From Eledone cirrhosa (lineage: Eukaryota): a DNA stretch of 64,000 bases. The notes below the pieces were generated by a model. The model was not told the DNA's origin and did no database searches. It worked only from the letters and a program-made list of their open reading frames with translations. Where the stretch lies: the NCBI GenBank assembly GCA_964016885.1, contig OZ024741.1, positions 413,974,001 to 414,038,000 of the forward strand. Direction: 5' to 3'. Below are positions 1 through 64,000 of this stretch, one piece after another. The position numbers and the translations under genes were made by a program. The stretch's first letter is position 1. Every line of letters begins with the position of its first letter.

Positions 1-386
1 AGCTCTAGGTTTTTTTGCTTTGGACTATATTTGTAATATGGTTCTTAATGTTATATACATCCTTAGTAATTTTTATTATATATTTTTATTATTTTTATTT
101 TTATTATACATTTTTGCAATACTTTAGTGTATGTACACTCCATATTCTTCGGAGCTTCCGGCTTGTATCTGCCGATATTACTTCTTGTTGTTTTAATTGC
201 CCTGATGAGTCCTTAATAGGACGAAACATTGTCGGCTAATAAAGACTTTTGATGTATTGAAGGCTTTTTTGTTTTACTCTCTTAATTTTTCGGCTCTGTT
301 TAACTACATTGAGCTATACCTTTTACTGTCATTTCTATAATACGAAGAGGGTGTTTAACTCCAACACACTCCACAATTTTAACCCT
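1..386 (+). mobile_element. 3' end of a non-coding hammerhead-bearing Penelope-like/retrozyme element (family H1), cut by the window edge
   Basis: T-rich leader, HHR at 199-236, AATAAA at 238-243, then CGGCTCTGT..ACATTGAGCTA stem-loop (291-316) shared with the tails at 24386 and 38726. Ends at (TA)n. Confidence 0.65.
199..236 (+). ncRNA. Minimal type I hammerhead ribozyme
   Basis: GCC CTGATGA GTCCT-TAAT-AGGAC GAAAC ATT GTC GGC: complete core, 5-bp stem II, GUC cleavage triplet, short stem I (GCC/GGC). Confidence 0.85.
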
Positions 387-815
387 TATATATATATATA
401 TACATATATACATATATATACATATATATATATACATATATACATACATATATACATACATATATCTATACACATATATTATATATATACATATATATAT
501 ATACATATAAATATATATACGTATATATATATATGGACATATATATACATATACATATACATATATATATACGTATATATATATATGGACATATATATAC
601 ATATACATATACATATATATATACGTATATATATATATGGACATATATATACATATACATATACATATATATACATATATATATATATATACATATATAT
701 ACATATATATATATATACATATATATATACATATATATATATATACATATATATATACATATATATATATATACATATATATATACATATATATATATAT
801 ACATATATATATATG
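387..815. repeat. (TA)n/(TACA)n compound microsatellite, representative of many such tracts in the window
   Basis: Directly visible. Similar tracts at ~1247-1497, 4343-4780, 12030-12340, 20420-21211, 29200-29790, 43050-43275, 45400-45840 and 46250-46900. Confidence 0.95.
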
Positions 816-4779: not shown

Positions 4780-7700
4780 ATGCACAAACTCCCATTGCTG
4801 CCATTAACAAACAAACAAATTAACAACACACCAAAACAATTAAAACCATCCACTCTCGCCTCTACATTTTTGCTTAACGCCCAAGGCATCAGCCCTTCCA
4901 CCAATACTCAAAAATGGAAGATCAAATTCCTGGAGGACTGGATTGATGTCCATCCAAACCACATCCCTTTCTTCGTCCTCACTGAAACCCATCTCAGTAA
5001 CCTCCACTTGGAAGCCGAGGTGAAAGTGAAAAATTTCAAAGCCATCCGTGCTGATCGCGCTGGCAGAAGAAAGGGCGGAACTGCCATTTATGTCCATAAT
5101 TCTTTCTCAACAGAGGCTATGAACATATTCACTAATGGATACTGTGAGGCAGTCACTGTATTCAGTCAAACCAACAACCTATTAGTAGTTGGGCTCTATA
5201 GGCCACCCCAAACGCCTGTACCATGCTTCAAGGAATGCCTCAACAGCATAAAGTGTTTCATCCAAGAGTGTCACCCTGACAACATCTTAATGATGGGGGA
5301 CTTCAACCTCCCCGGAGTTGACTGGTCCACAAACACCCTGCCACCAGGTTCTTCTGCCTCAACCTCTGACAGGGAAGCTGTGGAATCGCTTCTTGACTTC
5401 ATGGATGATTTCTTCCTATCCCAACTAGTGCTCGAACCAACGAGGTGCCACAAAAACGTCCTAGACTTAATTTTCAGCAATCACACTGACAATATCCACA
5501 ATATTGCAGTGGAGAAAACTCTACTCTCTGATCATGACATGGTTCTCTGTGATCTGAGATTCCACCGTCCAATATACAAACCCAATGTCATCTCTCCTGT
5601 CCATCCGTTTGACGCTATGGATTTCCACAATGCAAACTGGGAAGCGATCAGTCATGATCTTGCACATGTCGACTGGTCCTTCACGCACACTCATACACCC
5701 ACTAACATCAAAAAGTCCTGGCAGACATTTGTGGACACTGTTACAAACATATGTGCTAAACACACCCCATTAAGAACTATAAACAAATCTAAGAGCAGAA
5801 TCCCTAGAAATAGAAAAACGCTCATCAGAAAAATTAAGAGAACGAACAAAAAAATCAACAAGCTGAAATACTGTCAGCAGCAACACATCAACTTGACTGC
5901 CATTTCATCACTAGAGATTAAAAAACATAACCTCCAAAACAACATAATGTCCCTCATCAACAATCAGAGAAGAGCTGAAGAGGCCTGGGCCATTGAGAAG
6001 ATCAAACTCAATCCCAAAGTGTTCTTTTCATTTGCAAAAAAACACAAAATCACTGGCTCTACTGTTGGCCCTCTAATTGATGAAAATGGCACTCTTCAAG
6101 ACAATGCTAAAACCATGGGTGAGATACTGCAGAAACAATACTGCTTTGTTTTCAGCAATCCTGATATGGCCGATCTGGGCTGTATCGGCGATGTTACTCC
6201 CCATTACACCTTATCGGACATAACGTTTGGCGCCCCTGATGTCTTGGCGGCAATAAAGGAAATCAAGCATAATTCAGCAGTAGGTCCCGATAGGTTCCCT
6301 GCTTGTGTCTTGAAGGCGTGTCAACACCAACTTGCTTCTCCTCTTGCCAATCTGTGGCGGAACTCACTGGATGCTGGATATGTGCCAGAAAACCTTCTAT
6401 CCCAGTCTGTTGTCCCAGTTTTCAAAAAGGGAAACAAATCCCTTGCCGTGAATTACCGTCCAATCTCACTCACCTCTCATATCATTAAGGTATTTGAGCG
6501 AGTGGTGAGATCGCGAATGACCCACTTCCTTGAGAGTAACAATATGCTGAACTCCAACCAGCATGGATTCCGTAATGGAAGGGATTGCCTGACGCAACTA
6601 CTGCATCACTTTGATGACATTTTGAGAGCCTTGGGAGAGGGTTCCAACACTGATGTTATCTACCTTGATTTCAGCAAGGCCTTTGACAGGGTTGATCATA
6701 ACATTCTACTGAGAAAGCTGTCCAATATTGGTGTCACTGGAAAGCTGCTGCAGTGGATCAAGAGCTTCCTGTCAAACAGAACCCAACATGTTGTAGTTGA
6801 GGGAGTCAAATCAAGCCCAGCCAAAGTCAGTAGTGGAGTCCCACAAGGCACTGTGTTGGGCCCACTTCTCTTCATCATCTATATTAATGACATCACTGAC
6901 ATCATCAAACACAGCAACATTAAAATTTTCGCTGATGATTCCAAGCTCCAAAAGGTCATCAATGGCGTGGATGACCGGATAAGCCTTCAGTCAGACCTAC
7001 TGGCTGTTACCCAATGGGCAGAAAAGAACAACATGTTACTGAACGAAGACAAATTCGAACTGATCCACTTTGGAAAAGAGGATGCTCTGAAACTCCCGTA
7101 CTCCCTTCCCTCCGGGGAAACTCTCGTGGCATCTAACAACATCAGAGACTTGGGAGTAACCGTGGACAGCAACATAAGCTGGACCACGCATATAAGCAGC
7201 AAAGTTGACATGGCCCGCAGAATGTGTTCCTGGATCCTCAGAACCTTCCAGTCGAGAGATTCCCGCACCATTATCCTTCTCTTCTCTACTTTCGCCCGAC
7301 CACACCTTGAATACTGTTGTCCACTGTGGTCTCCCCACACGAAACAAAGTATCATGAAACTTGAAGCTCCTCAAAGGGCAATCACGAAAAAGATAGATGG
7401 CATGTCAGACCTTGACTACTGGGGTCGATTGGAAAACCTGAAACTTTACTCACTCCAACGTCGCCGTGAGCGTTATATTATCTGCATGATGTGGAAAATG
7501 TTCCATCATCACTGCCCAAATGATGTTGGCATCGCCTTCAAGATACACCCAAGGCTTGGGCCCCGTGCTATCCGTCCCATTCAAAAATCTAAATCGCAAC
7601 TCATAACAACAATACGGCACAATTATTTCACCTCAATCGGCCCTGCTCTCTTCAACATCACACCAGGACACGTCAAAACAGAAACTGACCACACAAAATT

Positions 7701-11000: not shown

Positions 11001-12030
11001 AGTGTGTATTAGGGACTCGTAAAACCTATCCTTAAGTTCGTCTGGCAGCCCCGATTGGGGTGCGTAAGCTGATATTATTGTGGTAATTGTCTTATTCAGG
11101 ACTAGTCTGAGTTTAATGATTCTTGCATTTACCCTGTACACTGAGATTACTTTATCTACCCACTTGTCAGCTAATAGTATACCTACACCACCCATCCCAT
11201 CGTCATTTCCCACCCAGAAAAATTTGTAGCACTGGCTTTTTCCTACAAGGACTCTAGCAGACCCTCCTCTCCATCTAGTCTCTTGCACACAGCATACATC
11301 AACTTCCTTTCGCTCTAGCATTTCTACGATTTCTCCTGCTCTTCCTTTCATTGAGCCTACATTGATGGTACCAACTTGGAGTTTTGGGCATTTGTCGACA
11401 CTCGTAGGGGAGGGTCTCTGGGTTGGCGCTTCACGTGGGTGCTTGGTAGCTCGCAGATTCATATTTCATCTATTGATTCAGAGTTGCTCGTGTATTCCCA
11501 GCTCATCCATCCATAACGGTGGGAAAATTGAGGGCTAGAAGAACAGTGGTGGTGGGGTAATGGCAGGGTGTGTTGGGATGCGCCAGAGGAGGAGAGAGTT
11601 AGTTAGGCAGGTAGTAGCAGCAGCAGTGGAAATGGCATGCTAGGTTTGATTGGTCGAATAGACTATGGTGGTGTGTGGGGGTGGGGGGGGGGGGGGAAAT
11701 TGTGAGGTAGGAACTGAGGGTCGCATGGTAAATATCCAAGTTAATACTACATCAGTAAAATTAACAATAATAACGTCATGAAAAACTACTAAGAGAAACC
11801 CTCGAAAATTTATCGCTAATACAGCAGGGAAAATTTAACGCTAATACAGCAGGGAACATCATAATATTAACGACAATATGTAGGCTAAAATACCTTCGTA
11901 GATTAGATGGATGGCTGGAAAAATTGGAATCAGCTCTAGTGATACATTTTAGCAGAGAAGAATGGGAAAGTGTCTTATCTCTTCAATATTTTCAGATTGA
12001 ATGAATTAGGTTAAAGACAGGGTAGTAGCA
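8043..12030 (-). mobile_element. Near-full-length RTE LINE family A (APE-RT with PHD-like finger), two frameshifts
   Basis: APE ORF 10794-11462 (VQETRW, AYAPQ, GDFNGHVG), RT ORF 8725-10416 (GVHQGS, LLYADD), C-terminus 8345-8722, 3'UTR with (GAT)n tail. Frameshifts near 10800 and 8730. The 5' limit is approximate. Confidence 0.9.
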
Positions 12031-14136: not shown

Positions 14137-14288
14137 CATATATACATATATATATATATATATGTGAATATAGACATAGAATATTCGAAAATATTCTGTA
14201 TGTTTATAATAAACATTTTGAAGACCTAATCGCTATAGAATAGAATACGTCACGTATTACAATTAGATTCTCGATAAAAGCAAGGGAA

Positions 14289-14331
14289 GTAATCTACGCG
14301 TTTCATTCTCGTTAGAAATCATCAGGACCAC
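14289..14331 (-). ncRNA. Type I hammerhead ribozyme (H2 unit)
   Basis: Reverse complement reads GTGGTC CTGATGA TTTCT-AACG-AGAAT GAAAC GC GTA GATTAC. Confidence 0.8.
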
Positions 14332-14598
14332 ATATCCAGTGCTTTTATCGAGAATGACACAGCTAGAGACTTATAGAATACTTAGCTGTGTACAGGAACT
14401 GGTTTGAAAGAGCGGTTGCCGGTCCGGCAGAAATTAGAAATTGGAATAAATGCTCTGAAATAGCGATATATATGTGAATATAGACATAGAATATTCGAAA
14501 ATATTCTGTATGTTTATAATAAACATTTTGAAGACCTAATCGCTATAGAATAGAATACGTCACGTATTACAATTAGATTCTCGATAAAAGCAAGGGAA

Positions 14599-14641
14599 GT
14601 AATCTACGCGTTTCATTCTCGTTAGAAATCATCAGGACCAC
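14599..14641 (-). ncRNA. Type I hammerhead ribozyme (H2 unit)
   Basis: Identical to 14289-14331. Confidence 0.8.
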
Positions 14642-14908
14642 ATATCCAGTGCTTTTATCGAGAATGACACAGCTAGAGACTTATAGAATACTTAGCTGTG
14701 TACAGGAACTGGTTTGAAAGAGCGGTTGCCGGTCCGGCAGAAATTAGAAATTGGAATAAATGCTCTGAAATAGCGATATATATGTGAATATAGACATAGA
14801 ATATTCGAAAATATTCTGTATGTTTATAATAAACATTTTGAAGACCTAATCGCTATAGAATAGAATACGTCACGTATTACAATTAGATTCTCGATAAAAG
14901 CAAGGGAA

Positions 14909-14951
14909 GTAATCTACGCGTTTCATTCTCGTTAGAAATCATCAGGACCAC
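14909..14951 (-). ncRNA. Type I hammerhead ribozyme (H2 unit)
   Basis: Identical to 14289-14331, adjacent to the inversion point. Confidence 0.8.
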
Positions 14952-15114
14952 ATATTCTATGTCTATATTCACATATATATCGCTATTTCAGAGCATTTAT
15001 TCCAATTTCTAATTTCTGCCGGACCGGCAACCGCTCTTTCAAACCAGTTCCTGTACACAGCTAAGTATTCTATAAGTCTCTAGCTGTGTCATTCTCGATA
15101 AAAGCACTGGATAT

Positions 15115-15157
15115 GTGGTCCTGATGATTTCTAACGAGAATGAAACGCGTAGATTAC
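15115..15157 (+). ncRNA. Type I hammerhead ribozyme (H2 unit)
   Basis: GTGGTC CTGATGA TTTCT-AACG-AGAAT GAAAC GC GTA GATTAC. Stem I GTGGTC/GATTAC (two G-U pairs), palindromic stem III ACGCGT, GUA triplet. Confidence 0.8.
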
Positions 15158-15429
15158 TTCCCTTGCTTTTATCGAGAATCTAATTGTAATACGTGACGTA
15201 TTCTATTCTATTCTATAGCGATTAGGTCTTCAAAATGTTTATTATAAACATACAGAATATTTTCGAATATTCTATGTCTATATTCACATATATATCGCTA
15301 TTTCAGAGCATTTATTCCAATTTCTAATTTCTGCCGGACCGGCAACCGCTCTTTCAAACCAGTTCCTGTACACAGCTAAGTATTCTATAAGTCTCTAGCT
15401 GTGTCATTCTCGATAAAAGCACTGGATAT

Positions 15430-15472
15430 GTGGTCCTGATGATTTCTAACGAGAATGAAACGCGTAGATTAC
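15430..15472 (+). ncRNA. Type I hammerhead ribozyme (H2 unit)
   Basis: Identical to 15115-15157. Confidence 0.8.
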
Positions 15473-15739
15473 TTCCCTTGCTTTTATCGAGAATCTAATT
15501 GTAATACGTGACGTATTCTATTCTATAGCGATTAGGTCTTCAAAATGTTTATTATAAACATACAGAATATTTTCGAATATTCTATGTCTATATTCACATA
15601 TATATCGCTATTTCAGAGCATTTATTCCAATTTCTAATTTCTGCCGGACCGGCAACCGCTCTTTCAAACCAGTTCCTGTACACAGCTAAGTATTCTATAA
15701 GTCTCTAGCTGTGTCATTCTCGATAAAAGCACTGGATAT

Positions 15740-15782
15740 GTGGTCCTGATGATTTCTAACGAGAATGAAACGCGTAGATTAC
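15740..15782 (+). ncRNA. Type I hammerhead ribozyme (H2 unit)
   Basis: Identical to 15115-15157. Confidence 0.8.
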
Positions 15783-16080
15783 TTCCCTTGCTTTTATCGA
15801 GAATCTAATTGTAATACGTGACGTATTCTATTCTATAGCGATTAGGTCTTCAAAATGTTTATTATAAACATACAGAATATTTTCGAATATTCTATGTCTA
15901 TATTCACATATATATCGCTATTTCAGAGCATTTATTCCAATTTATATATATATATATATATACATACACATATATATATATATATATATACATACATATA
16001 TATATATATATATACATATATACATACATATATATATATATATACATATTATTAGATTATATATATATACATATTATTAG

Positions 16081-18238: not shown

Positions 18239-18276
<38 letters not shown>

Positions 18277-18283
<7 letters not shown>

Positions 18284-19286
18284 GATCGAGTATCGAAAAA
18301 TCGGCGCACGAGTTCACGATAAACAATATTCGAAATGAGCAGCAGAGGGCTCAATAATTCAGATGAATCAGAGCTATAACTATCGTTAAAATACCGTCAC
18401 ACATAGAACAAGTCTAAAATCAACCATACGATAAAAAATCGATAATAGAAGATTCGGGACAAACAGATAAAAAATATCAATAAAACAATACATCAATAAT
18501 TTAAATGAATGTAAAATCATACCTGGACCCACTAGAAAGGTGTTAAATCTAGCTTCTTGGGTTTTTGTAAATCCTTAGACTGTACTCTATCAGCTCACAT
18601 ATAAATATATAAGACTACTAGAGCAAGAGGAATGGAGTTTACTTCATCAACGAGCTTTTTCCTAGCGGATAAGAGGCTAACTATAAGCGAAATACGCACA
18701 TGGAATTCGACAAGGGAGATAACCTCTACATCCGCGAAAACTATTCGAGGAAATGTGGAAATACACATATCGAATAAGAGTGCTCAATAGACATGTTAAA
18801 ATAAAACAAGAGCTATTCATCACTCAATAGAATCGACAAAAAATGAGCAATAAAATTAACTGGTGGATAGCTATGTCCAGAGCTAAAAATATTAGAAAGA
18901 TCGAGTATCGAAAAATCGGCGCACGAGTTCACGATAAACAATATTCGAAATGAGCGGCAGAGGGCTCAATAATTCAGATGAATCAGAGCTATAACTATCG
19001 TTAAAATACCGTCACACATAGAACAAGTCTAAAATCAACCATACGATAAAAAATCGATAATAGAAGATTCGGGACAAACAGATAAAAAATATCAATAAAA
19101 CAATACATCAATAATTTAAATGAATGTAAAATCATACCCGGACCCACTAGAAAGGTGTTAAATCTAGCTTCTTGGGTTTCTGTAAATCCTTAGACTGTAC
19201 TCTATCAGCTCACATATAAATATATAAGACTACTAGAGCAAGAGGAATGGAGTTTACTTCATCAACGAGCTTTTTCCTAGCGGATA
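18277..19286 (-). mobile_element. Non-coding partial-tandem element with a 615-bp unit (~1.65 copies), family H3
   Basis: TTAGAAAGATCGAG starts at 18277 and 18892, and a third copy with the same terminus is at 63729. Carries the GCTCTG..ATTGAGC stem-loop on the minus strand. Confidence 0.75.
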
Positions 19287-21524: not shown

Positions 21525-21558
<34 letters not shown>

Positions 21559-21604
21559 ATAAATAAATAACAAAGAACGCTTATAGCATATGCATATCTT
21601 TACT

Positions 21605-21650
21605 TGCTAACATTGTTTCATCCGCACTATAAGTGGGACTCATCAGAGCA
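21605..21650 (-). ncRNA. Type I hammerhead ribozyme (H4)
   Basis: Reverse complement of 24287-24332. Confidence 0.8.
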
Positions 21651-22340
21651 TAAAGGTTAATTACATACCATACAAGCAATAACAAATCCAAGACATTGAA
21701 GAATGAAAGGTAATAATAGACGATAGAGGATAAGAATAAAAATAAAAATAAAAATAAAAGTAAAAATAAAAATAAAAATAAAAATAAGGGGTGCTATCAG
21801 TCACAGTTGGGCGATGTGCTGTCAACATATAGTTACATACAAGCATACACATGGATAAGAGAACAGACAAGAGTAGACACATGGATAAGAGAACAGACAA
21901 GAGTAGATAAGATAATGGGATTAGGTAAGAGTAGGTAAAAAATAGGTAAAAAATAGGTAAAAAACAGACTTATAATATATATAAAAAGAAATACAAAGAA
22001 ATACATAACAAACTTACATATAAAATATAAAATATAGGGTAAGGAATGAGATAAAATAATATAAAATTAAAAATTAAAATTTATATACATAGAACATAAT
22101 ATAGTATAATCGTAAAATAAGATAAAATAAGGTAAACTAAAATCAAATAACATAGACTAAATTAAAATAATATAATATAAGATATAATTAAAATCAAATG
22201 TATAATTATAATTATATGTATAATTAAATGTAATTAAATGTAATTAAATAAATAAATAAATAAATAAATAAAAATTAAATAAATAAATAAAATTTAAATT
22301 TAAATTTTAAAATTTTAAAATTAAAATCTAAATTTAAATA

Positions 22341-22383
<43 letters not shown>

Positions 22384-23370
22384 ATGGAGTCAAGTAAGTA
22401 AATAAATAAAATTAGATAACATGAAATGAAATAAAATAAAATGAAATAAAGTAAATTGAGATAAGATATATATTTTTTTAGAATATATCTCTTGAATATA
22501 TCAGGGGCCCACGAAGGCACTAAATGTGTGAACCGGTTTGTGATTACCCCACCGCTCAAGTGATACTGGTGACTGTGACACTTAGTGCCTTCGTGGACCC
22601 CTGATGTTTTCAAGAAATATATTTTAAAAAATTGGTGTGTGAACCGGTTTGTGATTACCCCACCGCTCAACTGTGTGAATGCACACCCATGACTTTCGAG
22701 TGAACTTTCGAGACTGCCCAACCTGCGACGCCTCCATTGCCTTGCAATGGTCAAGTGATACTGGTAAATAAGTAAATAAATAAAATTAGATAACATGAAA
22801 TGAAATAAAATAAAATGAAATAAAGTAAATTGAGATAAGATATATATTTTTTTAGAATATATCTCTTGAATATATCAGGGGCCCACGAAGGCACTACGTG
22901 TGTGAACCGGTTTGTGATTACCCCACCGCTCAAGTGATACTGGTGACTGTGACACTTAGTGCCTTCGTGGGCCCCTGATGTTTTCAAGAAATATATTTTA
23001 AAAAATTGGTGTGTGAACCGGTTTGTGATTACCCCACCGCTCAACTGTGTGAATGCACACCCATGACTTTCGAGTGAACTTTCGAGACTGCCCAACCTGC
23101 GACGCCTCCATTGCCTTGCAATGGTCAAGTGATACTGGTGACTGTGACACTTAGTGCCTTCGTGGGCCCCTGATGTTTTCAAGAAATATATTTTAAAAAA
23201 TTGGTCAAGTGATACACATAACTGTGACATTTAGTGCCTTCGTGGGCCCCTGATATATTCAAGAGATATATTCTAAAAAAATATATATCTTATCTCAATT
23301 TACTTTATTTCATTTTATTTTATTTCATTTCATGTTATCTAATTTTATTTATTTACTTACTTGACTCCAT

Positions 23371-23409
<39 letters not shown>

Positions 23410-23478
23410 TATTTAAATTTAGATTTTAATTTTAAAATTTTAAAATTTAAATTTAAATTTTATTTATTTATTTAATTT

Positions 23479-23514
<36 letters not shown>

Positions 23515-23841
23515 TTACATTTAATTACATTTAATTATACATATAATTATAATTATACATTTGATTTTAATTATATCTTATATTATATTATTTTAATTTA
23601 GTCTATGTTATTTGATTTTAGTTTACCTTATTTTATCTTATTTTACGATTATACTATATTATGTTCTATGTATATAATTTTTAATTTTTAATTTTATATT
23701 ATTTTATCTCATTCCTTACCCTATATTTTATATTTTATATGTAAGTTTGTTATGTATTTCTTTGTATTTCTTTTTATATATATTATAAGTCTGTTTTTTA
23801 CCTATTTTTTACCTATTTTTTACCTACTCTTACCTAATCCC

Positions 23842-24022
23842 GGATTGGCAGTATCGGTAGAGGGTCAGACACCATGCTTTCCAGCATAGTTACGTCCCTT
23901 TACGATCTGAGTTCAAATCCCGCCGAGGTTGACTTTGCCTTTCATCCTTACGAGGTCGATAAAATAAAGTACCAGTAATGCACTGGGATAATTGATGGCC
24001 TTGTGCCAAAAGTAGAAACAAT
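23842..24022 (+). mobile_element. tRNA-derived SINE with Meta-domain-like core, inserted in the right arm of H4 copy 1
   Basis: TGGCAGTATCGG A-box-like, GAGTTCAAATCC B-box, GCCTTTCATCCTT..GGTCGATAAAATAAAGTACCAGT. Absent from the left arm. Relatives at ~26676-26730, 27535-27690 and 42130-42205(-). Confidence 0.75.
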
Positions 24023-24286
24023 TATCTTATCTACTCTTGTCTGTTCTCTTATCCATGTGTCTACTCTTGTCTGTTCTCTTATCCATGTGTATGCTTGTAT
24101 GTAACTATATGTTGACAGCACATCGCCCAACTGTGACTGATAGCACCCCTTATTTTTATTTTTATTTTTATTTTTACTTTTATTTTTATTTTTATTTTTA
24201 TTCTTATCCTCTATCGTCTATTATTACCTTTCATTCTTCAATGTCTTGGATTTGTTATTGCTTGTATGGTATGTAATTAACCTTTA

Positions 24287-24332
24287 TGCTCTGATGAGTC
24301 CCACTTATAGTGCGGATGAAACAATGTTAGCA
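24287..24332 (+). ncRNA. Type I hammerhead ribozyme (H4)
   Basis: TGCT CTGATGA GTCC-CAC-TTATA-GTG-C-GGAT GAAAC AAT GTT AGCA. Stem I is extendable by CTTTA/TAAAG. GUU triplet. Confidence 0.8.
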
Positions 24333-24752
24333 AGTAAAGATATGCATATGCTATAAGCGTTCTTTGTTATTTATTTATTATATTACGGCTCTGTCCTCAG
24401 ACATTGAGCTAACCTCATACTGCCTGCTGGATAAGTGGAGTGTTATACACCCCTGATCCTTTCCCTAGCATACTATATATATATATATACTTTAGTAAGT
24501 TCGGTAGAAATATCCAAGAGTAAGAACACTCAGTCCATAGGAGGAGTTTAGTATAAATAATTACAACAGTGACATAAAAAGGTACTTATGTTTCTAGACC
24601 CCAACTCTTTCAGCTTATCATACGAAAAATAAAACCTTTTTTATTTTTTATTTTTCATTTTTTTTATGACAGACTGAACGAGTTGGGGTCCAAAAGCCAA
24701 CGAAACTCAAGCACCTGTTTATGTCACAGTTGTTATTATTTATATATATATA

Positions 24753-28248: not shown

Positions 28249-29200
28249 AGACATGAAAAATGCGCAAGCTCAAAAGTGCCACAGAATGTTATAATAAACC
28301 TTCAAAAGTGTGGGACTAGAGTTGTTGCTAAAAAATATTGTAATCATTATATATCGTACATTCTGTGGCATCCTTTATAAAAAATAGCTTAAACCAACGA
28401 AGCCTTTATTTTTACGCTATTTCACTTAGTTAATTCTTAGAGTGTAACATATAAAAATAAATACATCTATGTTTAATGTAATAACAGCTATAAATAATTA
28501 CGTAATATTATTATCATATACTCATAGTAACAAAATAATTGTGTTGAAACTTAATATGATGCTTATATGAACGATCAAATCTATAATGATAATTTCTTAA
28601 ATATACTAATAGTAAAATAATTTAGTTATCTATTGTTACATTTTCATAGAACTATAATATTAACAATCGTATTGCATTATCAAATTTTTATCACTACAAA
28701 CTTTCATATTGGAATTACCTTAAGCCACTTATTATTACTTCGCTTTCGTACTTTTACAGCTGTAGATATTGCGCTGTATCTTATATCTAATATCAATATC
28801 TCGTGGTAATTTGCATGAAGTGTAAAATAGGTTTATTAATAACTTTAATATAAAATGTATTATACAGGGCTGCGGAGTCGGCCAAAAATTGACTGGCTCC
28901 AACTCAGGATCCGATACTCCATTATTTCCTAAATTTCAGCTCCGCAGCTCTGTTATTATATTAATTAATTTATTTTATAGTTGTAAATCATATTTTTATA
29001 TGTTACACTCTAAGAATTAACTAAGTGAAATAGCGTAAAAATAAAGGCTTCGTTGGTTTAAGCTATTTTTATAAAGGATGCCACAGAATGTACGATATAT
29101 AATGATTACAATATTTTTTAGCAACAATTCTAGTCCCACACTTTTGAAGGTTTATTATAACATTCTGTGGCACTTTTGAGCTTGCGCATTTTTCATGTCT
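28249..29200. mobile_element. MITE-like element with ~210-bp terminal inverted repeats
   Basis: 28249-28458 (AGACATGAAAAATGCGCAAG..) is a near-perfect reverse complement of 28992-29200. The interior is AT-rich and non-coding. Confidence 0.8.
28865..28952. mobile_element. 88-bp hAT-like MITE nested in the larger MITE
   Basis: TIRs CAGGGCTGCGGAG / CTCCGCAGCTCTG. Flanks GTATTATA / TTATTATA match at 7 of 8 positions, consistent with an 8-bp TSD. Confidence 0.65.
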
Positions 29201-30009: not shown

Positions 30010-30094
30010 GCCCAAATGACACCCAGTCTGAGAATTGAACTCACAACCTTTCGATTGTAAGGCCAATGCTCTAACCATTAAGCCATGTGCCTCT
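30010..30094 (-). mobile_element. SINE tRNA-head fragment
   Basis: Reverse complement matches 816-890. Confidence 0.75.
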
Positions 30095-30383
30095 ACATAC
30101 ATACATACATACATACATACATACATACATACATACATACATACATACATACATACATACATACATACAAAGGTTATATTTAATTTGTTGGGATACAACA
30201 AGCTTAAAAATATTTTTATAACTGATATAAAGCACTCAACAAATTATTGGAGTAATTATACAATATATTAACAAATGGAATGCACATCTGAGTAAGGAGG
30301 GCAGTGAAGATCCTTGCTGGTACTTCCATAACAACACCAACCGAAATGGAAGACTACTGAGAGACACCCTGCTTGAGGCGAAC

Positions 30384-32756: not shown

Positions 32757-32809
32757 ATAGATATATATAAAGTGTTAAAACGATCAAATTTTAGTTTAGA
32801 ACATTTATT

Positions 32810-32856
32810 TGCTGACAATTGTTTCTTCCAGAGGGAAGTCTGGAATCATCAGAGCA
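32810..32856 (-). ncRNA. Type I hammerhead ribozyme (family H5)
   Basis: Reverse complement: TGCT CTGATGA TTCCAGA-CTTCCC-TCTGGAA GAAAC AATT GTC AGCA, followed directly by AATAAA. 7-bp stem II, palindromic ACAATTGT stem III. Confidence 0.85.
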
Positions 32857-33214
32857 TAGGGAATGTCAAAACATGTGACTAAAATCCTAGTCATTCAGAA
32901 CATTTAGGGTACATAATTGTTGTTAGTGTCAAAGGCATCGTGTGGAGAGTCAGGAGTTAAAAAGATGTTATGCTTGAGAGAACACAATTACAGGCAGCAC
33001 TGGTTGAAAGTGTAATAGGTATAAGTGAAAAGTACAGGCAAAAAAGTTATAAGCAAGGAAGAGTGGTGTACAATGCAGGAGTCAATACAGTCAATAAGGC
33101 ATGTATGAGGAAAGAGTTATAATGCAGTTGAAATAAACATATTTTGTGTGGTCTGTTAAAGCATGTTATAATTGTTATAAATGTTTAAGGTAGTGTGCAA
33201 TTTGTTAGAGAGGC

Positions 33215-33690: not shown

Positions 33691-34161
33691 GATAATGTGG
33701 GTATTTGTTATGTGAGGTGTAATACAAAGCACATGATAGAGTTGGGTATGTGATTTTCATTCAAGTGATTTTGTGTTGTAGTTCGTATGTATGTGTATAT
33801 GTTGTTTGTTACTCACAGCTATTAACCATGATATTATTTTGAGTCGTTTATAGTCAATAGGTGTGTGTTTCTTAAATGTAAATTTCGCCGAATTACTGGC
33901 CATGTTGTTATTTTAGCTATATTATTTTATGCATGTTTTATCTACAAATTATCTTGTCTAGGGTTTGTATTAACCGTTATTAAGCTTTTGGTGAACCGTT
34001 ATGTTGCTTAATTTTATAAGTTTACACAGGAAATTGTTAATAACAAAGGGAGGTAACTAAGGTTGTTAATAGATTAAGGGTTGTTTTAATATTGTTGTAG
34101 TGTTATAAATTAATCTATATAGAGTATATAAAATATAAAATATTATTGGTAGTAATAGGAT

Positions 34162-34552
34162 ATACGTTCCTTCACGCACAAGGCGCCAAGGTACGCATGT
34201 ATTGTCCAACCAAATGCCAGTGTGGTTCAATGGCGGGTTAATAAATTAACGAGCCAGAACAAATATAAACAAGGTTTAGCAAATAATGAAAAAGTTTCAA
34301 AATAAATTTTAAAAAATTGACTTTACCTACTATAGTTACCTTTACCGATCGGTTTCGAATCCCAAAAATAAAACGGAGACCATACGGCCTTCGTTGCAAA
34401 GAAAGATTCTCGTCAGAAGGTTCTTTTCATTCAAAGAATATAAAATTCCTGAATTTAAATCACAAACTAGCGCTATCAAAACTGTTCCTGGGATGAGAGT
34501 GGATGATGTAGAAACAGGTTTATCAAGGGCCGAAGCAAAGATAGAGGCAAAT
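34162..34552 (-). mobile_element. Non-coding hammerhead element 3' end (family H6)
   Basis: HHR at 34338-34421, followed on the minus strand by GGCTC..CATTGAACC (34224-34255). Limits approximate. Confidence 0.5.
34338..34421 (-). ncRNA. Type I hammerhead ribozyme with long stem II
   Basis: Reverse complement: ACCTT CTGACGA GAATCT..(~40 nt)..GGATTC GAAAC CGATCG GTA AAGGT. Palindromic stem III ACCGATCGGT. Confidence 0.82.
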
Positions 34553-34558
34553 GTATAT

Positions 34559-35445: not shown

Positions 35446-35532
35446 ATATATATATGTACATATAAATATGTATATATATATATATATATAATAAATAACA
35501 AAGAACGCCTATAGCATATGCATATCTTTACT

Positions 35533-35578
35533 TGCTAACATTGTTTCATCCGCACTATAAGTGGGACTCATCAGAGCA
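35533..35578 (-). ncRNA. Type I hammerhead ribozyme (H4)
   Basis: Identical to 21605-21650. Confidence 0.8.
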
Positions 35579-36093
35579 TAAAGGTTAATTACATACCATA
35601 CAAGCAATAACAAATCCAAGACATTGAAGAATGAAAAATAATAGAAGATAAAGTATATTAAGGAAGTAAAAGTAAAAATAAAAATAATAAAATAAACAAT
35701 GAAAAATAAGGGGTGCTATCAGTCACAGTTGGGCGGGGTGCTGTCAACATATAGTTACATACAAGCATACACATGGATAAGAGAACAGACAAGAGTAGAT
35801 AAGATAGATAGGATTAGGTAAGAGTAGGTAAAAAATAGGTGAAAAACAGACTTATAATATATATAAGAAAATATAATGAAATATATAACAAACTTACATA
35901 TAAAATATAAAATATACAGATAATAGTGATACAGGGTAAGGAATGAAATAAAATAATATAAAATTAAAATTAAAATTATATAAAATAGAACATAATATAA
36001 TATAATCATAAAATAAGATAAAATAAGGTAAACTAAAATAAAATAAAATAGACTAAAGTAAAATAATATAATATAAGATATAATTAAATGTAA

Positions 36094-36125
<32 letters not shown>

Positions 36126-37973
36126 AATTAAATAAATAAATAAAATTAAAATTAAAATTAAATTTAAATAAATAAATAAATAAATAAGTAAATAAATAAA
36201 TAAATAAATAAATAAATGAAATTAAATAAGTAAATAAATAAAATTAGATAAAATAAAATAAAATGAAATAAAGTAAATTGAGATAAGATATATATTTTTT
36301 TAGAATATATCTCTTGAATATATCAGGGGCCCACGAAGGCACTAAGTGTCACAGTCATCTGTATCACTTGACCATTTTTTTAAAATATATTTCTTGAAAA
36401 CATCAGGGGCCCACGAAGGCACTAAGTGTCACAGTCACCAGTATCACTTGACCATTGCAAGGCAATGGAGGCGTCCCAGGTTGGGCAGTCTCAAAAGTTC
36501 ACTCGAAAGTCACAGGTGTGCATTCACACAGTTGAGCGGTGGGGTAATCACAAACCGGTTCACACCCGGGCAGGAGTCCAATGGTCAAACAGAGGTGCAT
36601 CGAAGGAAGGTAGGAGAATTCACGTGCAGTAGCAAGCGAGGTGCAGGCGGGTTAGCCAAAGCAAGCAGACACAGTTGGAGCGCATACAAAAGATATATAA
36701 AAAGACAAAAGATATATAAAAAATAGCTTCAAGAGCCATGAAGTCACCGCATTGGGACATCACAAGATTGTACACATCAATATGTTCAGCACGTATATGC
36801 ACATATACACACCACATGCATATGCAGAGACGGTATACACATATATATATATATTTTTTTATATACAGACATATACAACCACCTACACCCATACACATAT
36901 AAATGTATACACAGACACACACACACAGCGTAGGACACCCGGGTCAAAGCTGATATTAAACACCGAAATACCACATTAGGCAAGACCCACCACCACGGAT
37001 AATACATTCAAAATAAATACATACGATGAGATGTAGTAAAATAAAGTTGAATTCCTACGGAGATAATCATGTCCGCACGTGCCATTGCCCGATTCAAGTG
37101 TACACAGACCGTTAGTAACTACGGATGGCTATCGGGGCCAAAACGTTACTTTCGGGATCATAACAACGACTGTATGTATTATCCGTGGTGGTGGGTCTTG
37201 CCTAATGTGGTATTTCGGTGTTTAATATCAGCTTTGACCCGGGTGTCCTACGCTGTGTGTGTGTGCGTGTGTGTCTGTGTATACATTTATATGTGTATGG
37301 GTGTAGGTGGTTGTATATGTCTGTATATAAAAAAATATATATATATATGTGTATACCGTCTCTGCATATGCATGTGGTGTGTATATGTGCATATACGTGC
37401 TGAACATATTGATGTGTACAATCTTGTGATGTCCCAATGCGGTGACTTCATGGCTCTTGAAGCTATTTTTTATATATCTTTTGTCTTTTTATATATCTGT
37501 TGTATGCGCTCCAACTGTGTCTGCTTGCTTTGGCTAACCCGCCTGCACCTCGCTTGCTACTGCACGTGAATTCTCCTACCTTCCTTCGATGCACCTCTGT
37601 TTGACCATTGGACTCCTGCCCGGGTGTGAACCGGTTTGTGATTACCCCACCGCTCAACTGTGTGAATGCACACCTGTGACTTTCGAGTGAACTTTTGAGA
37701 CTGCCCAACCTGGGACGCCTCCATTGCCTTGCAATGGTCAAGTGATACTGGTGACTGTGACACTTAGTGCCTTCGTGGGCCCCTGATGTTTTCAAGAAAT
37801 ATATTTTTAAAAAATGGTCAAGTGATACAGATGACTGTGACACTTAGGGCCTTCGTGGGCCCCTGATATATTCAAGAGATATATTCTAAAAAAATATATA
37901 TCTTATCTCAATTTACTTTATTTCATTTTATTTTATTTTATCTAATTTTATTTATTTACTTATTTAATTTCAT

Positions 37974-38012
<39 letters not shown>

Positions 38013-38079
38013 CTTATTTATTTATTTATTTATTTATTTAAATTTAATTTTAATTTTAATTTTATTTATTTATTTAATT

Positions 38080-38115
<36 letters not shown>

Positions 38116-38630
38116 TTACATTTAATTATATCTTATATTATATTATTTTACTTTAGTCTATTTTATTTTATTTTAGTTTACCTTATTTTATCTTATTTTA
38201 TGATTATATTATATTATGTTCTATTTTATATAATTTTAATTTTAATTTTATATTATTTTATTTCATTCCTTACCCTGTATCACTATTATCTGTATATTTT
38301 ATATTTTATATGTAAGTTTGTTATATATTTCTTTATATTTTCTTATATATATTATAAGTCTGTTTTTCACCTATTTTTTACCTACTCTTACCTAATCCTA
38401 TCTATCTTATCTACTCTTGTCTGTTCTCTTATCCATGTGTATGCTTGTATGTAACTATATGTTGACAGCACCCCGCCCAACTGTGACTGATAGCACCCCT
38501 TATTTTTCATTGTTTATTTTATTATTTTTATTTTTACTTTTACTTCCTTAATATACTTTATCTTCTATTATTTTTCATTCTTCAATGTCTTGGATTTGTT
38601 ATTGCTTGTATGGTATGTAATTAACCTTTA

Positions 38631-38676
38631 TGCTCTGATGAGTCCCACTTATAGTGCGGATGAAACAATGTTAGCA
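38631..38676 (+). ncRNA. Type I hammerhead ribozyme (H4)
   Basis: Identical to 24287-24332. Confidence 0.8.
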
Positions 38677-39098
38677 AGTAAAGATATGCATATGCTATAG
38701 GCGTTCTTTGTTATTTATTATATCACGGCTCTGTCCTCAGACATTGAGCTAACCTTATGCTGCCTGCTGGATAAGTGGAGTGTTATACACCCCTGATCCT
38801 CTCCCTAGTATACTATATATATATATATGTATATACATATATATATATAGTTGTTACCAGGAAATTGCCCAATATAGGTCTGTTATTTTTCTTAATTTAC
38901 AACTTAAAATTAAGTCTGACAAACCATCTTGCTGTAGTTAGTATTTTTTCACCCTAGCAAACCTAGTCCTTACAATTCGAACACATGTATGTTTATATTA
39001 GTGTTCATCTCTCTTGTTTATTCAATTATGTTACATAACTCAGAAAAGCTTTTTTCTTAGAGCATTTTAATTGTAAGAGACTACTCTGAGTTTCTAAC

Positions 39099-45593: not shown

Positions 45594-45843
45594 ACATACA
45601 TATATATACATATATATATACATACATATATATACATATATATATACATACATATATACATATATATATACATACATATATACATACGTATATACATACA
45701 TATATATACATATATATATACATACATATATACATATATATATACATACATATATACATATATATATACATATCTATATACATACATATATACATATATA
45801 TATACATACATATATACATATATACATATATATATATATACGC

Positions 45844-46044
45844 TATCGCCGTATTTTGACTAAAAAATTAAAGAAATTATTTTAGCCTGATAGTGGGGTT
45901 AAGAACCCCCAGAGAAATGGAAAAAGATGAGTATTGACGTACATGTACGTCAATTCTCATCTTTTTCCATCTCGCCGAGGGTTCTTAACCCCACTATCAG
46001 GCTAAAATAATTTCTTTAATTTCTTTAGTCAAAATACGGCGATA
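45844..46044. repeat. ~200-bp spacerless palindrome
   Basis: TATCGCCGTATTTTGACTAAA.. / ..TTTAGTCAAAATACGGCGATA, centred on TTGACGTACA|TGTACGTCAA (45943/45944). Confidence 0.9.
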
Positions 46045-46454
46045 ACTTACATTTCTAATAATTTCAAACCAACTCGCTGTTTCGAAAATATTCTTACTTG
46101 ATATATATATACATATATTTATATATATTTATTAAAATAACAGATTAAAGTTATTTTAATAAATATTTGCTCTACGGTTCTTATATATTTGATATATATT
46201 TATCCTTATCGAGCCCTCTTTGGATTTTAGTCTTCAAATTTATTATTATATATATACATATATATATATATATACATATATATAGATACATACATATATA
46301 TATATATACACATATATATATATATATATATATACATATATATACATACATATACATACATGCATACATACATACATACATAGATGTATATATATATATA
46401 CATACATACATACATAGATGTATATATATATACATACATACATACATAGATGAT

Positions 46455-46855: not shown

Positions 46856-49135
46856 ATGTATATATATATATATATACATACATACATGCATACATACATA
46901 CTAATATTCTATCGGAGGTATCTAACTGACCTCTACCAACAAGTTCTTAGGGGAGATACACTTATACCAGAATGGTTGACATTAGCACAAACGTTACTGG
47001 TCCCCAAGAACAAAGACACCCACTTGGCAAAAAACTACCGACCCATTGCATGCCAGAACCTGATGTATAAGATGTATACGGCCTGCCTGAACCTATTCCT
47101 CCAAGATCACTGTGAAAATAATAACATCTTCACAGATGAACAAGCAGCTGGAAAGAAAAGGGTTTGGGGATGTGCTGAACAACTCCTAATCAACAAAACT
47201 GCGATGTCGGAGGTGCGACAATTTAGGAGGAATATGTCTACAGTCTGGCTGGACTACAAGAAAGCTTTCGATTCTGTTCCCCACTCTTGGATGATAGAGG
47301 CCCTCCAACTTGCTAAAGTCCCAGACATTATTGTCAGAGCCATAGAGAGGCTGTCTTCTTCTTGGGCTACTATCCTAAGGTTAAAGACAAAGAGGGAGGA
47401 CTCTATTTTCACTGATAAAATAAAATATTGCAGGGGTATATTTCAGGGGGACAGTCTCTCTGTGATTTTGTTCATCTTGTCATTAAACCCCTTGTCCTTT
47501 CTGCTCAAGAAATGTGAGGGATACATCATTGGCTCACAGGAGGACAGAAATACGAACCTAACCCATAACTTCTTTGTGGACGATCTGAAACTCTATGCCA
47601 AGAACATGGATGGGATGAAGAAAAATCTTGACCTGGTTACAACATTCTCAAAGGATATAGGAATGGAGTTTGGCCAAGTTAAATGCTCATACATGACTGT
47701 AAAGCGGGGAAAAACAACAACCCAATCTAGCAACATTGTCATCAATGGTCTGTTTCACCGATATCTGATGAGGACTGCTAGATACCTGGGGATAGATGAG
47801 AACATATCCTATAATGGTATCTGTAATAAGCAACGCGTAACCAGGGAATACTACACCCGATTAAGAAAGATCTGGTCATCGGAACTCTCTGCGCAAAACA
47901 AGACAGTGGCTCACAATGTGTTTGTTGTGCCTGTCCTAACACCAACGTTTGGAATACTCAATTGGACGGTAGACGAAATCCGAGCAGTTGATGTTGGAAC
48001 TCGAAAAATACTGAACAACACCGGAAACTTCCACATCAACAGTGACATAGACCGCCTTTACTTGAAACGTAAGCAGGGAGGCAGAGGCCTAATATTAGTC
48101 CAGACAACATTTGAATGTCGTATCATATCTCTCCGACAACATCTACGAACCTCGAAGCGTAGGAGCCCGCTTCTCGAGCAAGTCTATCTGCATGAAACAG
48201 ATAAGATCATGAGAGTTGGGAAGGAACTCCTTGAGAGATATTCCCTGTGTGATAATCAAAATCTCACACCCAGGGATGTCGCTCAGCAGTATCGCAGTGA
48301 ATCCATGGATGAAAAACTGCATGCCTATCAGCAAAAAATCATGCATGGATATGTTGCCAGGAAGCTCCAGAGTGAGAGTAATATAGATAAGGAAATTAGT
48401 CTATCTTGGACCAACAACCGCTATATTGGCTCCCACTTTGAAGGATACGCTTTTGCAATCCAAGAACAGGAGATTAGCACGAAATACCTGATTCACAAAA
48501 GAGATAGGGATGCAGGCAAAACACCTAGATGTGATAACAAGTGCAGACTCTGCAGAACTAACATCGAGGATATCACCCATGTCATCAGCAGCTGCCCAAA
48601 GATGTCATCGCGGTACTATCTACCTATGAGGCATGATGTAGTGGCCAAAACACTGTACAATGCAGTTCGTAAAAAAGATAGCCCCGATAACAAACACATT
48701 AAAAGCTACAACAATGTGGAAGACATCCATGTACATAATATGAAAGAGTACTGGTGGAATGTTCCTGTAAAAACCCCAATAAAATGCAGGCATAACAGAC
48801 CAGATATTATGATATGGGACAGGGAGAAGAAAACATGCACAGCAGTGGAAATTAGCTGCCCAGCAGATGCCAATATAATATCAAAGATTAGTGAAAAGGA
48901 GAATATTTATGCAGAACTGATGAGAAATCTGCAGATACTCCACCCTGATTACACCTTCAGATTTATGCCTGTGATTATTGGGGCACTGGGATATGTTAGT
49001 AACTGCCTCAATACAAATCTTGAGAAGCTAGGCTTCACAGGAACAGAAAGAACACAACTAGTTAGGAAATTACAAGTACAATCCATTAATGGAACAGTAA
49101 AAATATGTAAAACATTCCAAAAATTTTGCATCTAA
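46856..49135 (+). CDS. R4/Dong-like RLE retrotransposon ORF (RT, CCHC knuckle, restriction-like endonuclease). The 5'-truncated element spans ~46900-49363.
   Basis: [58 protein letters not shown]. The first ~15 codons are microsatellite read-through. Confidence 0.88.
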
Positions 49136-52400: not shown

Positions 52401-53483
52401 AATATTAACAACATATGAGACCCGGATAGTGACACTGAAGCAACACCTTCAACAGAGGAAAAAGGTTGGCAACCATCTTGCCCAGGTTTATGACCATGAA
52501 AAAAGAAATATCATTAGAATAGCGACTGATCTGGAGGAGAGATATGGAATAAAGCCCGATATAAATCTCTCACCCAGAGAAATCGGAAGATCCTATTCAA
52601 TGTTCAAACAAGAAAAAAAAATTGACCAATTTACAGAAAAAGTTGTGCATGGATACTTGAGGCGTAAAACACAGACCATAGAGGGGAAAAACCACTCAAA
52701 AAGCCTGGCATGGAGTTCCGACAGGTTTATGACATCACACCTTGAGGGATATCTCTATGCAATACAGGAACAAGAACTCCCTACCAAATATCTGCTGCAC
52801 AAAAGAGGAGGGCCAGCAGCTGACAATAAATGTAGGCTATGTAAAACAAAGATCGAGGATGTAAGCCACATTGTTGCCAGCTGCGAAAGAATGTCATCTC
52901 GCTACTACCTCCCCATGAGACACGATGGGATAGCTAGAACCATCTGGAACGCACTTCGAAAAACAAAATCAACAACAAACGAGGAAGAATATATTGAGAC
53001 AGATGGCACTAAGGAATACTGGTGGAACCTGAAAATAAAAACTGCCACCAAATTAAAGCACAACCGGCCTGATATTGTAGTTTGGGACCACACATTGAAA
53101 ACGTGTTCTGTTGTGGAGATCAGCTGCCCACTTGATGTAAACGTTGTCAGAAAAATACAGGAGAAGGAGGACATCTACGGACCATTGATGAGGAGTTTAC
53201 AAATCCAGTATCCAAGATACACCTTTAGCTTCATACCCATCATTATTGGTGCTACGGGTTATATACCAACCCGCTTGGACCAAAGTATGACTGAACTTGG
53301 ATTTGCGGACAAAAAGCGCAGCTCCCTAATTCATAGTCTACAAATGGCTGCGATAGCTGGCACCTTCAAAATTTGCAAAACATTCTTGCGATTCAAGGGA
53401 TGACAATTTCTTTTCTTTTACAACCTTGCCACCAGGAAGGTGGCCGGTCAAAAAATATACTCAAAATTAAGAGAAAGAGAAAA
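49482..53483 (+). mobile_element. Apparently full-length R4/Dong-like RLE retrotransposon with one frameshift
   Basis: ~400-bp 5'UTR. ORF parts 49895-52168 (N-terminus + RT) and 52231-53403 (GGRGL, CRLC..H..C, RHD, RPDI..E). Frameshift near 52145, short 3'UTR, (CATA)n flanks. Confidence 0.88.
49895..53403 (+). pseudogene. Frameshifted RT-RLE ORF of the R4/Dong-like element
   Basis: Colinear homology to 46856-49135 continues across the two ORFs. Confidence 0.85.
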
Positions 53484-63566: not shown

Positions 63567-63728
63567 TAGATGTATATTATTATATATACATACATAGATG
63601 CATATATATATATATATATACACACATACATAGATGTATAGATGCATATATATATATATATACATAGATGTATATATATATATATATATACATACATAGA
63701 TGTATATTTATATATATATATATATATA

Positions 63729-63968
63729 TTAGAAAGATCGAGTATCGAAAAATCGGCGCACGAGTTCACGATAAACAAGATTCGAAATGAGCGGCAGAGG
63801 GCTCAATAATTCAGATGAATCAGAGCTATAACTATCGTTAAAATACCGTCACATATAGAACAAGTCTACAATCAACCATACGATAAAAAATCGATAAAGG
63901 AAGATTCGGGACAAACAGATAAAAAATATCAATAAAACAATACGGCAATAATTTAAATGAATGTAAAA
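63729..63968 (-). mobile_element. Truncated copy of family H3
   Basis: Matches 18277-18517 with the same terminus next to (TA)n. Confidence 0.8.
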
Positions 63969-64000
63969 ATATACATAGATGTATATATACATACATAGAT

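What the first reader, a model, noticed from the sequence alone, without database searches (positions are those of the whole stretch)
291..386. Conserved 3'-terminal stem-loop (G)GCTC..ATTGA(G/A)C shared by otherwise unrelated families
Seen: CGGCTCTGTTTAACTACATTGAGCTA (291-316,+), CGGCTCTGTCCTCAGACATTGAGCTA (24386-24411 and 38726-38751,+), AGCTCTGATTCATCTGAATTATTGAGCC (18348-18375, 18963-18990, 63800-63827,-) and GGCTCGTTAATTTATTAACCCGCCATTGAACC (34224-34255,-). A weaker case is GCTCTAC..TTATCGAGCCCTCT (46168-46218,+). Where an HHR is present the motif lies ~50-80 nt downstream of it. It starts ~90-100 nt before the element end. H1 and H4 also share a second G(A/G)GTGT..ACAC hairpin. Inference: a conserved cis RNA signal, such as an RT recognition or priming element, that I cannot match to a named motif.
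Basis: partly seen in the sequence, partly recalled or inferred. Interest (0 to 1): 0.85.

Follow-up and report, generated by a model that had tools for sequence, protein, structure and literature searches.

The report
Twin hairpins mark retroelement copy ends
A small bulged hairpin is conserved, usually in two copies, in one branch of telomerase-related jumping genes of aquatic animals, and inserted copies mostly end a few letters before one hairpin or the other, so it is likely the RNA signal that tells the copying enzyme where to start.

Summary
Real, but not terminal and not shared by unrelated elements. All 8 sites are present; 7 matches to the core pattern against 0.07 by chance. The fold is GCUC/GAGC, a 2-nt bulge, a closing pair and a free upper stem. 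It opens the one-sided 'tail' of Penelope-like insertions in (TA)n. In metagenomes it lies beside Hydra-clade PLE genes. All 13 of 120 pattern hits with a valid hammerhead have a paired upper stem and a following ACT. Among 6 loci picked by protein alone, 4 of 4 with a visible leader carry two hairpins between hammerhead and start codon; spacing is 62-68 nt over 6 loci. Copies end 2-6 nt before hairpin 1 or 2 in 9 of 13 junctions (10 allowing two substitutions); outliers are 15, 17 and 33. Best reading (0.65): an RNA docking site that fixes the two internal RT starts, so the tail is the hairpin-to-hairpin spacer. Function is untested, and the window holds no Hydra ORF. Not found in six literature searches. 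This scan has already reported it on other pieces of the same genome, and the twin idea came from such a note.

The parts
199..236 (+). H1 minimal type I hammerhead; cut site 59 nt before the hairpin
293..314 (+). H1 hairpin 1 (GCUC/GAGC, UU bulge, U-A, 2 more pairs)
290..387 (+). H1 tail, ending in (TA)n; partner arm would lie before the window start and was not seen
21554..24473 (.). H4 head-to-head insertion a; short (-) arm ends at 21554, 4 nt before the hairpin position; long (+) arm has an 86-nt tail
24388..24409 (+). H4 hairpin 1 (copy a), 59 nt after the hammerhead cut (core at 24291)
35486..38813 (.). H4 head-to-head insertion b; short arm ends at 35486, 4 nt before the hairpin position
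38728..38749 (+). H4 hairpin 1 (copy b), 55 nt after the hammerhead cut (core at 38635)
18274..19286 (-). N1 partial tandem of a 615-nt non-coding unit; no canonical hammerhead
18349..18374 (-). N1 hairpin 1, 100 nt before the end at 18274
18964..18989 (-). N1 hairpin 1 of the upstream unit
18782..18883 (-). N1 hairpin 2: long-range form with 7-bp upper stem and about 78-nt inner arm; begins 5 nt after the tail end (18889)
63726..63974 (-). N1 5'-truncated copy with hairpin 1 (63826-63801) and the same tail end
34225..34260 (-). Hairpin 1 variant GUUC/GAAC of the hammerhead element at about 34149-34557
46130..46245 (+). Mini fold-back stub; hairpin 46169-46214 (UC bulge); short arm stops 2 nt before it
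30234..30253 (-).
   Evidence: E 0.003, rough

Best explanation
The motif is a bulged hairpin conserved in two copies in the leader of Hydra-clade Penelope-like elements, and it likely acts in the RNA as the docking site that makes the element's reverse transcriptase start copying 2-6 nt upstream of it. Shown: the structure and its covariation; the order hammerhead, 40-59 nt, hairpin 1, 62-68 nt, hairpin 2, start codon; and that most insertion ends lie just before hairpin 1 or hairpin 2. Inferred: the endonuclease nicks both strands of a (TA)n target; RT bound at a hairpin anneals the nicked end to the AU-rich run just 5' of it and copies from there. One strand primed at hairpin 1 and the other at hairpin 2 would give the head-to-head insertion with a one-sided tail, and the tail is then the spacer between the hairpins. 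The window's families are inferred to be truncated or non-coding passengers that keep this signal and are moved in trans.
For: Chance excluded in the window. Metagenome scan: 13 of 120 hits pass an independent hammerhead descriptor; 13 of 13 have >=2 unselected upper pairs (23 of 107 in the rest) and 13 of 13 are followed by ACT (7 of 107); about 7 families by eye. Phage controls: 0 of 240 and 0 of 122 with a hammerhead. Unselected pairs covary: 13 of 13 paired in 5 types, 12 of 13 in 4 types. Compensatory lower-stem changes at 34260, 30253 and L366 hairpin 2; closing pair U-A in 10 and C-G in 9 of 19. Hydra-type ORF or EN fragments adjoin the motif in L259, L270, L318, L256, L310. Protein-selected test: of 6 loci, 4 of 4 with a leader carry two hairpins. 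Ends: 9 of 13 junctions at 2-6 nt by exact match. About 200 reads in each of two runs leave N1 into (TA)n at 18889, 5 nt before hairpin 2. Five contigs continue past 34149 into a hairpin-2-like stretch (read by eye). In Poseidon_Ac the tail lies between two internal RT starts, both strands are cut and extended, and the RNA needed runs about 55 nt 3' of the starts (PMC11167929).
Against: No binding, priming or RNA data. No Hydra ORF remnant in the window (tblastn; profile best E 0.067), so the tie for these families rests on motif, spacing and target. Four of 13 junctions miss by exact match: 15, 17, 20 (5 with two substitutions) and 33 nt. Both arms of the L365 main element stop at one point. 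No tail-less end at N1 hairpin 1 appears in the loose-end rows shown (24 shown, 269 hidden). An AU-rich run precedes nearly every hairpin and could set the ends by itself through microhomology with (TA)n, which also blurs each offset by a few nt. Single hairpins are weak (several z about -0.5 to -2); L366 hairpin 1 has a broken lower pair. The H2 hammerhead family has the same one-tailed layout without this motif. Lower-stem invariance in pattern-picked loci is by construction, and the script favours pairing.
Confidence: 0.65

Rival explanations
1. The hairpins bind the element's protein for packaging or translational control of the leader. The ends are set separately, by annealing of the (TA)n target to AU-rich runs that happen to lie beside them.
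For: Hairpin 2 lies 30-68 nt before the first ATG. The 10 nt upstream are 7-10 A/T in 16 of 18 measurable cases. Some ends lie 15-33 nt away.
Against: Non-coding passengers keep the hairpins. H4 has over 1 kb of AT-rich sequence, yet both short arms stop 4 nt before the hairpin. Ends sit before both hairpins.
Confidence: 0.17
2. The ends are RNA 3' ends made by cleavage or termination just before each hairpin (a nuclease site or an unrecognised self-cleaving fold), and RT simply starts at the RNA end.
For: Fixed 2-6 nt offset; conserved unpaired bases (bulge U, following ACU) would suit a recognition or catalytic site.
Against: Poseidon_Ac starts internally on uncut RNA (PMC11167929). The fold is very small. 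No Rfam family matches at gathering score.
Confidence: 0.08
3. The motif works as DNA: an endonuclease recognition or resolution site, or an internal promoter element.
For: PMC11167929 cites that the D. virilis Penelope tail was needed for EN recognition; PMC8557442 ascribes the tail to EN-mediated resolution.
Against: The upper stem covaries with free sequence and loop length, up to a 78-nt arm. G-U pairs occur on the sense strand (4 G-U, 0 A-C, biased script).
Confidence: 0.07
4. A functionless relic of common ancestry, or chance.
For: H1 and H4 are related beyond the hairpin; local alignment of the hairpin segment is not significant for 14 of 15 window family pairs.
Against: Compensatory changes, twin copies in protein-selected loci at 45-55% protein identity, and fixed position against ends.
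Confidence: 0.03

Closest known systems
Hydra clade of C-terminal EN+ Penelope-like elements (Craig et al. 2021, PMC8557442; passages, section 11, supplement parts 1, 2, 52, 53)
   Same: RWK, DKT, CxCX5C, CxxC and CxH motifs in the ORFs beside the hairpins; canonical hammerhead; (TA)n targets; includes an octopus family. The hairpin can be read by eye in Hydra-2_Amil, Hydra-1_Ajap (twin), Hydra-2_Ajap and as variants in Hydra-1_Crog; Hydra-1_Amil stops before it; Hydra-1_Obim is ambiguous (6 consensi seen).
   Different: The paper names no hairpin ('hairpin' and 'stem-loop' 0 times in text and supplement text). Tails are about 60 nt in coding elements and 72-111 nt here, against the 30-40 bp given for PLEs. 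The window's copies are non-coding.
Poseidon_Ac internal RT initiation (Frangieh et al. 2024, PMC11167929; parts 1-2 of 4 read)
   Same: Two internal starts that bound the tail; both target strands cut and extended; predicted dimer; RNA needed 3' of the starts.
   Different: Starts lie in one AC-rich stem-loop inside the ORF; no conserved or duplicated motif is described; different clade. Figures S1-S2 not seen.
PLE inverted pLTR with optional tail (PMC3846280, passages; PMC8557442)
   Same: Head-to-head arms with an extension on one arm only, as in H4 and 46130-46245.
   Different: No sequence or structure signal was given for the two ends.
Animal non-LTR retrozymes (PMC7229834, passages; bioRxiv 10.64898/2026.07.22.740005, parts 1-3 of 5)
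   Same: Non-coding, tandem, hammerhead-bearing PLE derivatives moved in trans; N1 and the 34149 element are tandem units.
   Different: No RT-recognition hairpin described; N1 lacks a canonical hammerhead.
3' stem-loops shared by stringent LINE/SINE pairs such as UnaL2/UnaSINE1 (recalled, not checked)
   Same: A small stem-loop that lets non-coding passengers recruit the partner's RT.
   Different: There the loop is conserved, the stem-loop is single and is copied, and RT starts 3' of it. Here stem and bulge are conserved, there are two copies, and the start would lie 5' of it.

Membership tests
Hydra-clade PLE (coding relatives that carry the motif) | RWK and DKT motifs in RT | tested here: met
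   Both in L259, L270, L363-L367; not matched in L368
Hydra-clade PLE (coding relatives that carry the motif) | CxCX5C linker, CxxC and CxH around the C-terminal EN | tested here: met
   All three in L259, L270, L363, L365, L368 by regex; frames seen. Short patterns can match by chance; no Pfam hit at E 0.01
Hydra-clade PLE (coding relatives that carry the motif) | Placement in the Hydra clade on an RT tree | not tested
   No reference PLE proteins could be loaded; assignment rests on motifs from PMC8557442 section 11
Hydra-clade PLE (window elements) | RT-EN ORF of Hydra type | tested here: not met
   No hit in the window; so they are filed as likely passengers or truncated ends, not as coding members
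Hydra-clade PLE (window elements) | Type I hammerhead in the pLTR | tested here: inconclusive
   Met for H1, H4 and the 34149 element; N1 has only a relic-like core; 46169 and 30253 stubs are too short
Hydra-clade PLE (window elements) | (TA)n target and inverted arm with one-sided tail | tested here: met
   H4 twice and 46130-46245; N1 and H1 end in (TA)n with no inverted arm seen
Non-LTR retrozyme | Tandem non-coding unit with a hammerhead in each unit | tested here: inconclusive
   N1 tandem without canonical hammerhead; 34149 element tandem in one contig of run X5
Non-LTR retrozyme | Self-cleavage and circular RNA | not testable with these tools
   No RNA data laid
Naiad or Chlamys PLE | Motif present in their published consensi | tested here: not met
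   17 GAGCACT places in those files, none in this hairpin by eye; line breaks can hide some
Any Rfam family | Match at gathering score | tested here: not met
   Only a tRNA-like hit at 30024-30087 in the window

The most novel reading that the evidence does not exclude
The two hairpins form a bipartite RNA scaffold for a dimeric, telomerase-related RT-endonuclease: each subunit docks on one hairpin and primes from one nicked strand. This one module explains the head-to-head, one-tailed shape of PLE insertions, and about 130 nt of it suffices to have any RNA written into (TA)n sites.
Probability: 0.3. Interest if true: 0.8.

Novelty: new variant of a known kind. Interest (0 to 1): 0.6.

Why it matters
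How Penelope-like RTs, the closest retroelement kin of telomerase, recognise their RNA and why insertions carry a tail on one arm only are open questions; one PLE has been studied in vitro. A short, covarying, duplicated motif with ends a fixed few bases away gives a direct test: move or break a hairpin and see whether the start moves. It also marks non-coding passengers of the Hydra clade, which repeat annotation would miss, and it may define a minimal RNA handle for an RT that writes into TA repeats.

Tried and rejected
No whole genome is held, so no genome-wide count of copies or junctions. Rfam gave no match to the motif or the hammerheads. Phage contigs: three pattern scans gave chance hits only, and two protein scans gave no relatives. 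Sequencing runs: no RNA holder listed, which is no evidence on expression. One search was swamped by high-copy LINE fragments, so the predicted tail of the tail-less hammerhead element at 32852 was not seen. In one search the pile-ups at 18971, 18945 and 18854-18857 fall on AATT sites and are read as library artefacts of RAD runs, not element ends. My first label 'Neptune-type' was dropped once the ORFs showed Hydra motifs. Pairing 18813 with 18782 as a local hairpin was rejected (z -0.15; most reads change GCTCT there) in favour of 18883-18782. Rejected as chance: 11338-11356 and the SINE-borne matches at 908 and 24845. The second GTGT/ACAC hairpin was rejected as a general signal. Pfam names none of 4 proteins. 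Not in print as far as searched: (open-access library only). Repbase, Arkhipova 2006, Pyatkov 2004 and Lunse 2017 were not seen (recalled only). Supplementary figures of PMC11167929 and PMC8557442 and the bioRxiv supplements could show the motif and were not seen.

Full report
Setting. The window is AT-rich animal DNA (GC 0.37) full of (TA)n runs, LINE fragments and tRNA-derived SINEs. No whole genome is held.

Observation. The core pattern occurs 7 times against 0.07 expected, in three families. H1, H4 and N1 fold into a 4-bp lower stem GCUC/GAGC, a UU bulge on the 3' side, a U-A pair and a variable upper stem. At 34224 the true 5' strand is GUUC at 34260, pairing with GAAC; this is a compensatory change, though the covariance model does not recover the site. 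46168 is weak by energy and model. A structure descriptor gave 9 hits in the window, all at such element ends, two of them alternative pairings of one 5' strand; it added 18883-18782 and 30253-30234. H1 and H4 are relatives, and their second hairpin is not a shared signal.

Position. The hairpin is not terminal. Both H4 insertions are head-to-head pairs in (TA)n. The short arm stops 4 nt before GCTC, and the long arm carries 86 more bases that begin with the hairpin. The stub at 46130-46245 is a small fold-back whose short arm stops 2 nt before it. This is the known PLE layout of inverted arm plus one-sided tail (PMC3846280, PMC8557442). In N1 the tail ends at the same base in two window copies and in about 200 reads in each of two runs. 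In the tandem copy a second hairpin, the minimum-energy fold of that stretch (z -3.0), begins 5 nt later. For the element ending at 34149, five contigs continue into a stretch that reads as hairpin 2 by eye.

Relatives. A metagenome scan asked for a hammerhead start, 60-90 nt, an AT run and the two motif halves (stopped at 120 rows of about 200). Thirteen of 120 pass an independent hammerhead descriptor. All 13 have at least two further upper pairs (23 of 107 in the rest) and all 13 are followed by ACT (7 of 107; six of those seven look genuine by eye). They are about seven families, so the Fisher values overstate independence. Phage hits never carry a hammerhead (0 of 240). On 14 hairpins, one or two per family, the pairs not fixed by the pattern covary; I supplied the structure, and one row is misaligned. 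L270 and L259 show hammerhead, hairpin 1, hairpin 2 and the start of an RT ORF. The ORFs carry RWK, DKT, CxCX5C, CxxC and CxH, the marks of the Hydra clade (PMC8557442 section 11). The family is large: 5614 of 7995 scored candidates at E<=1e-20.

Unbiased test. An alignment of 20 of those proteins found 6 loci in genome contigs. Four show a leader, and all four have two hairpins; model E-values run from 6e-8 to 1.4 (rough), the weakest confirmed by eye. L363 and L365 show no leader. Hairpin spacing is 62-68 nt in 6 loci, and hammerhead cut to hairpin is 40-56 nt in 13 loci. Over 19 hairpins not picked by the pattern, three lower pairs each change once on both sides, one pair is broken once, and the closing pair is U-A in 10 and C-G in 9, mostly C-G in hairpin 2 (the script favours pairing). 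Four of the six published Hydra consensi show the hairpin or a variant by eye, one of them in clear twin form; one stops before it and one is ambiguous.

Ends. I compared 13 junctions. Nine lie 2-6 nt before a hairpin by exact match: 4, 4, 2, 6, 6 at the hairpin opening the tail and 5, 5, 4, 4 at hairpin 2. One gives 20, or 5 if two substitutions are allowed. Three miss: 15 (7 if a local 8-nt duplication is discounted), 17 and 33. H4 and N1 each count twice, and L249 and L337 are one family. Against the model, both arms of the L365 main element stop at one point, the shown rows hold no tail-less end at N1 hairpin 1, and family H2 has a 30-nt tail without the motif.

Mechanism. In Poseidon_Ac, RT starts internally at two sites that bound the tail, both strands are cut and extended, the protein is predicted to be a dimer, and RNA to +172 is needed for starts at +111-118 (PMC11167929). 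I infer that in the Hydra clade each hairpin is the docking site lying just 3' of a start, that the AU-rich run before it pairs with the nicked (TA)n end, and that use of hairpin 1 on one strand and hairpin 2 on the other gives the one-tailed fold-back. Structure, order and end positions are shown; binding, priming and the dimer are inferred (0.65). The window has no Hydra ORF, so its families are taken to be passengers or truncated ends. The main rival is that the AU run sets the ends and the hairpin serves packaging or translation.

Novelty. PLE tails, hammerheads, the Hydra clade and internal initiation are known. The conserved twin hairpin and its tie to both ends were not found in six searches or in the texts read; some figures and closed papers were not seen. 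This scan has noted the same thing on other pieces of this genome. Those notes are not independent evidence. I had the tail-start position before reading them and found the Hydra clade from my own loci; the idea of a twin came from e1-8673755 and was then tested here. Verdict: a real, apparently undescribed cis RNA signal in a known clade; new variant of a known kind; interest 0.6.

Noticed in passing
window 14156-15946: Family H2: 310-nt hammerhead units in a head-to-head tandem with a 30-nt tail and no Hydra motif. A 3-bp GCU/AGC mini-stem starts 1 nt after the short-arm end and a GC-rich hairpin 9 nt after the tail end; possibly a parallel rule in another clade.
   Followed up: partly
window 32770-33200 (-): Hammerhead element like H1/H4 that ends about 76 nt after the core start, about where a hairpin would begin; its tail was not recovered.
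   Followed up: partly
window 19160-19210 (-): N1 has a hammerhead-like relic (core with an extra A, paired helix II, no cut triplet) about 200 nt before hairpin 1.
   Followed up: partly
L368:2883-2948 and 5380-5445: A full-length Hydra element starts at the base of hairpin 1 and ends 4 nt before hairpin 2, so the tail is a 66-nt terminal direct repeat. Two published consensi also begin 2-6 nt before a hairpin.
   Followed up: no
L363-L368: Animal-type PLEs with (TA)n flanks sit in species-representative bacterial MAG contigs; likely host DNA binned with the bacteria.
   Followed up: no
L270:500-1330: A long Ser/Pro/Gln-rich repeat insert between RT thumb and the CxCX5C linker.
   Followed up: no
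window 28249-29200: A 950-nt element with 211-nt, 99% identical terminal inverted repeats; MITE-like, no hammerhead.
   Followed up: no
window 45843-46100: A fold-back with a perfect central palindrome, 100-nt arms and a 50-nt extra stretch on one arm, with no motif; it abuts the 46130 stub.
   Followed up: no
window 54242-55394: Tandem array of about 53-nt units.
   Followed up: no
window 46856-49135 and 49880-53403: Two non-LTR ORFs that look like restriction-endonuclease-type (R4/NeSL-like) elements; label recalled, not tested.
   Followed up: no
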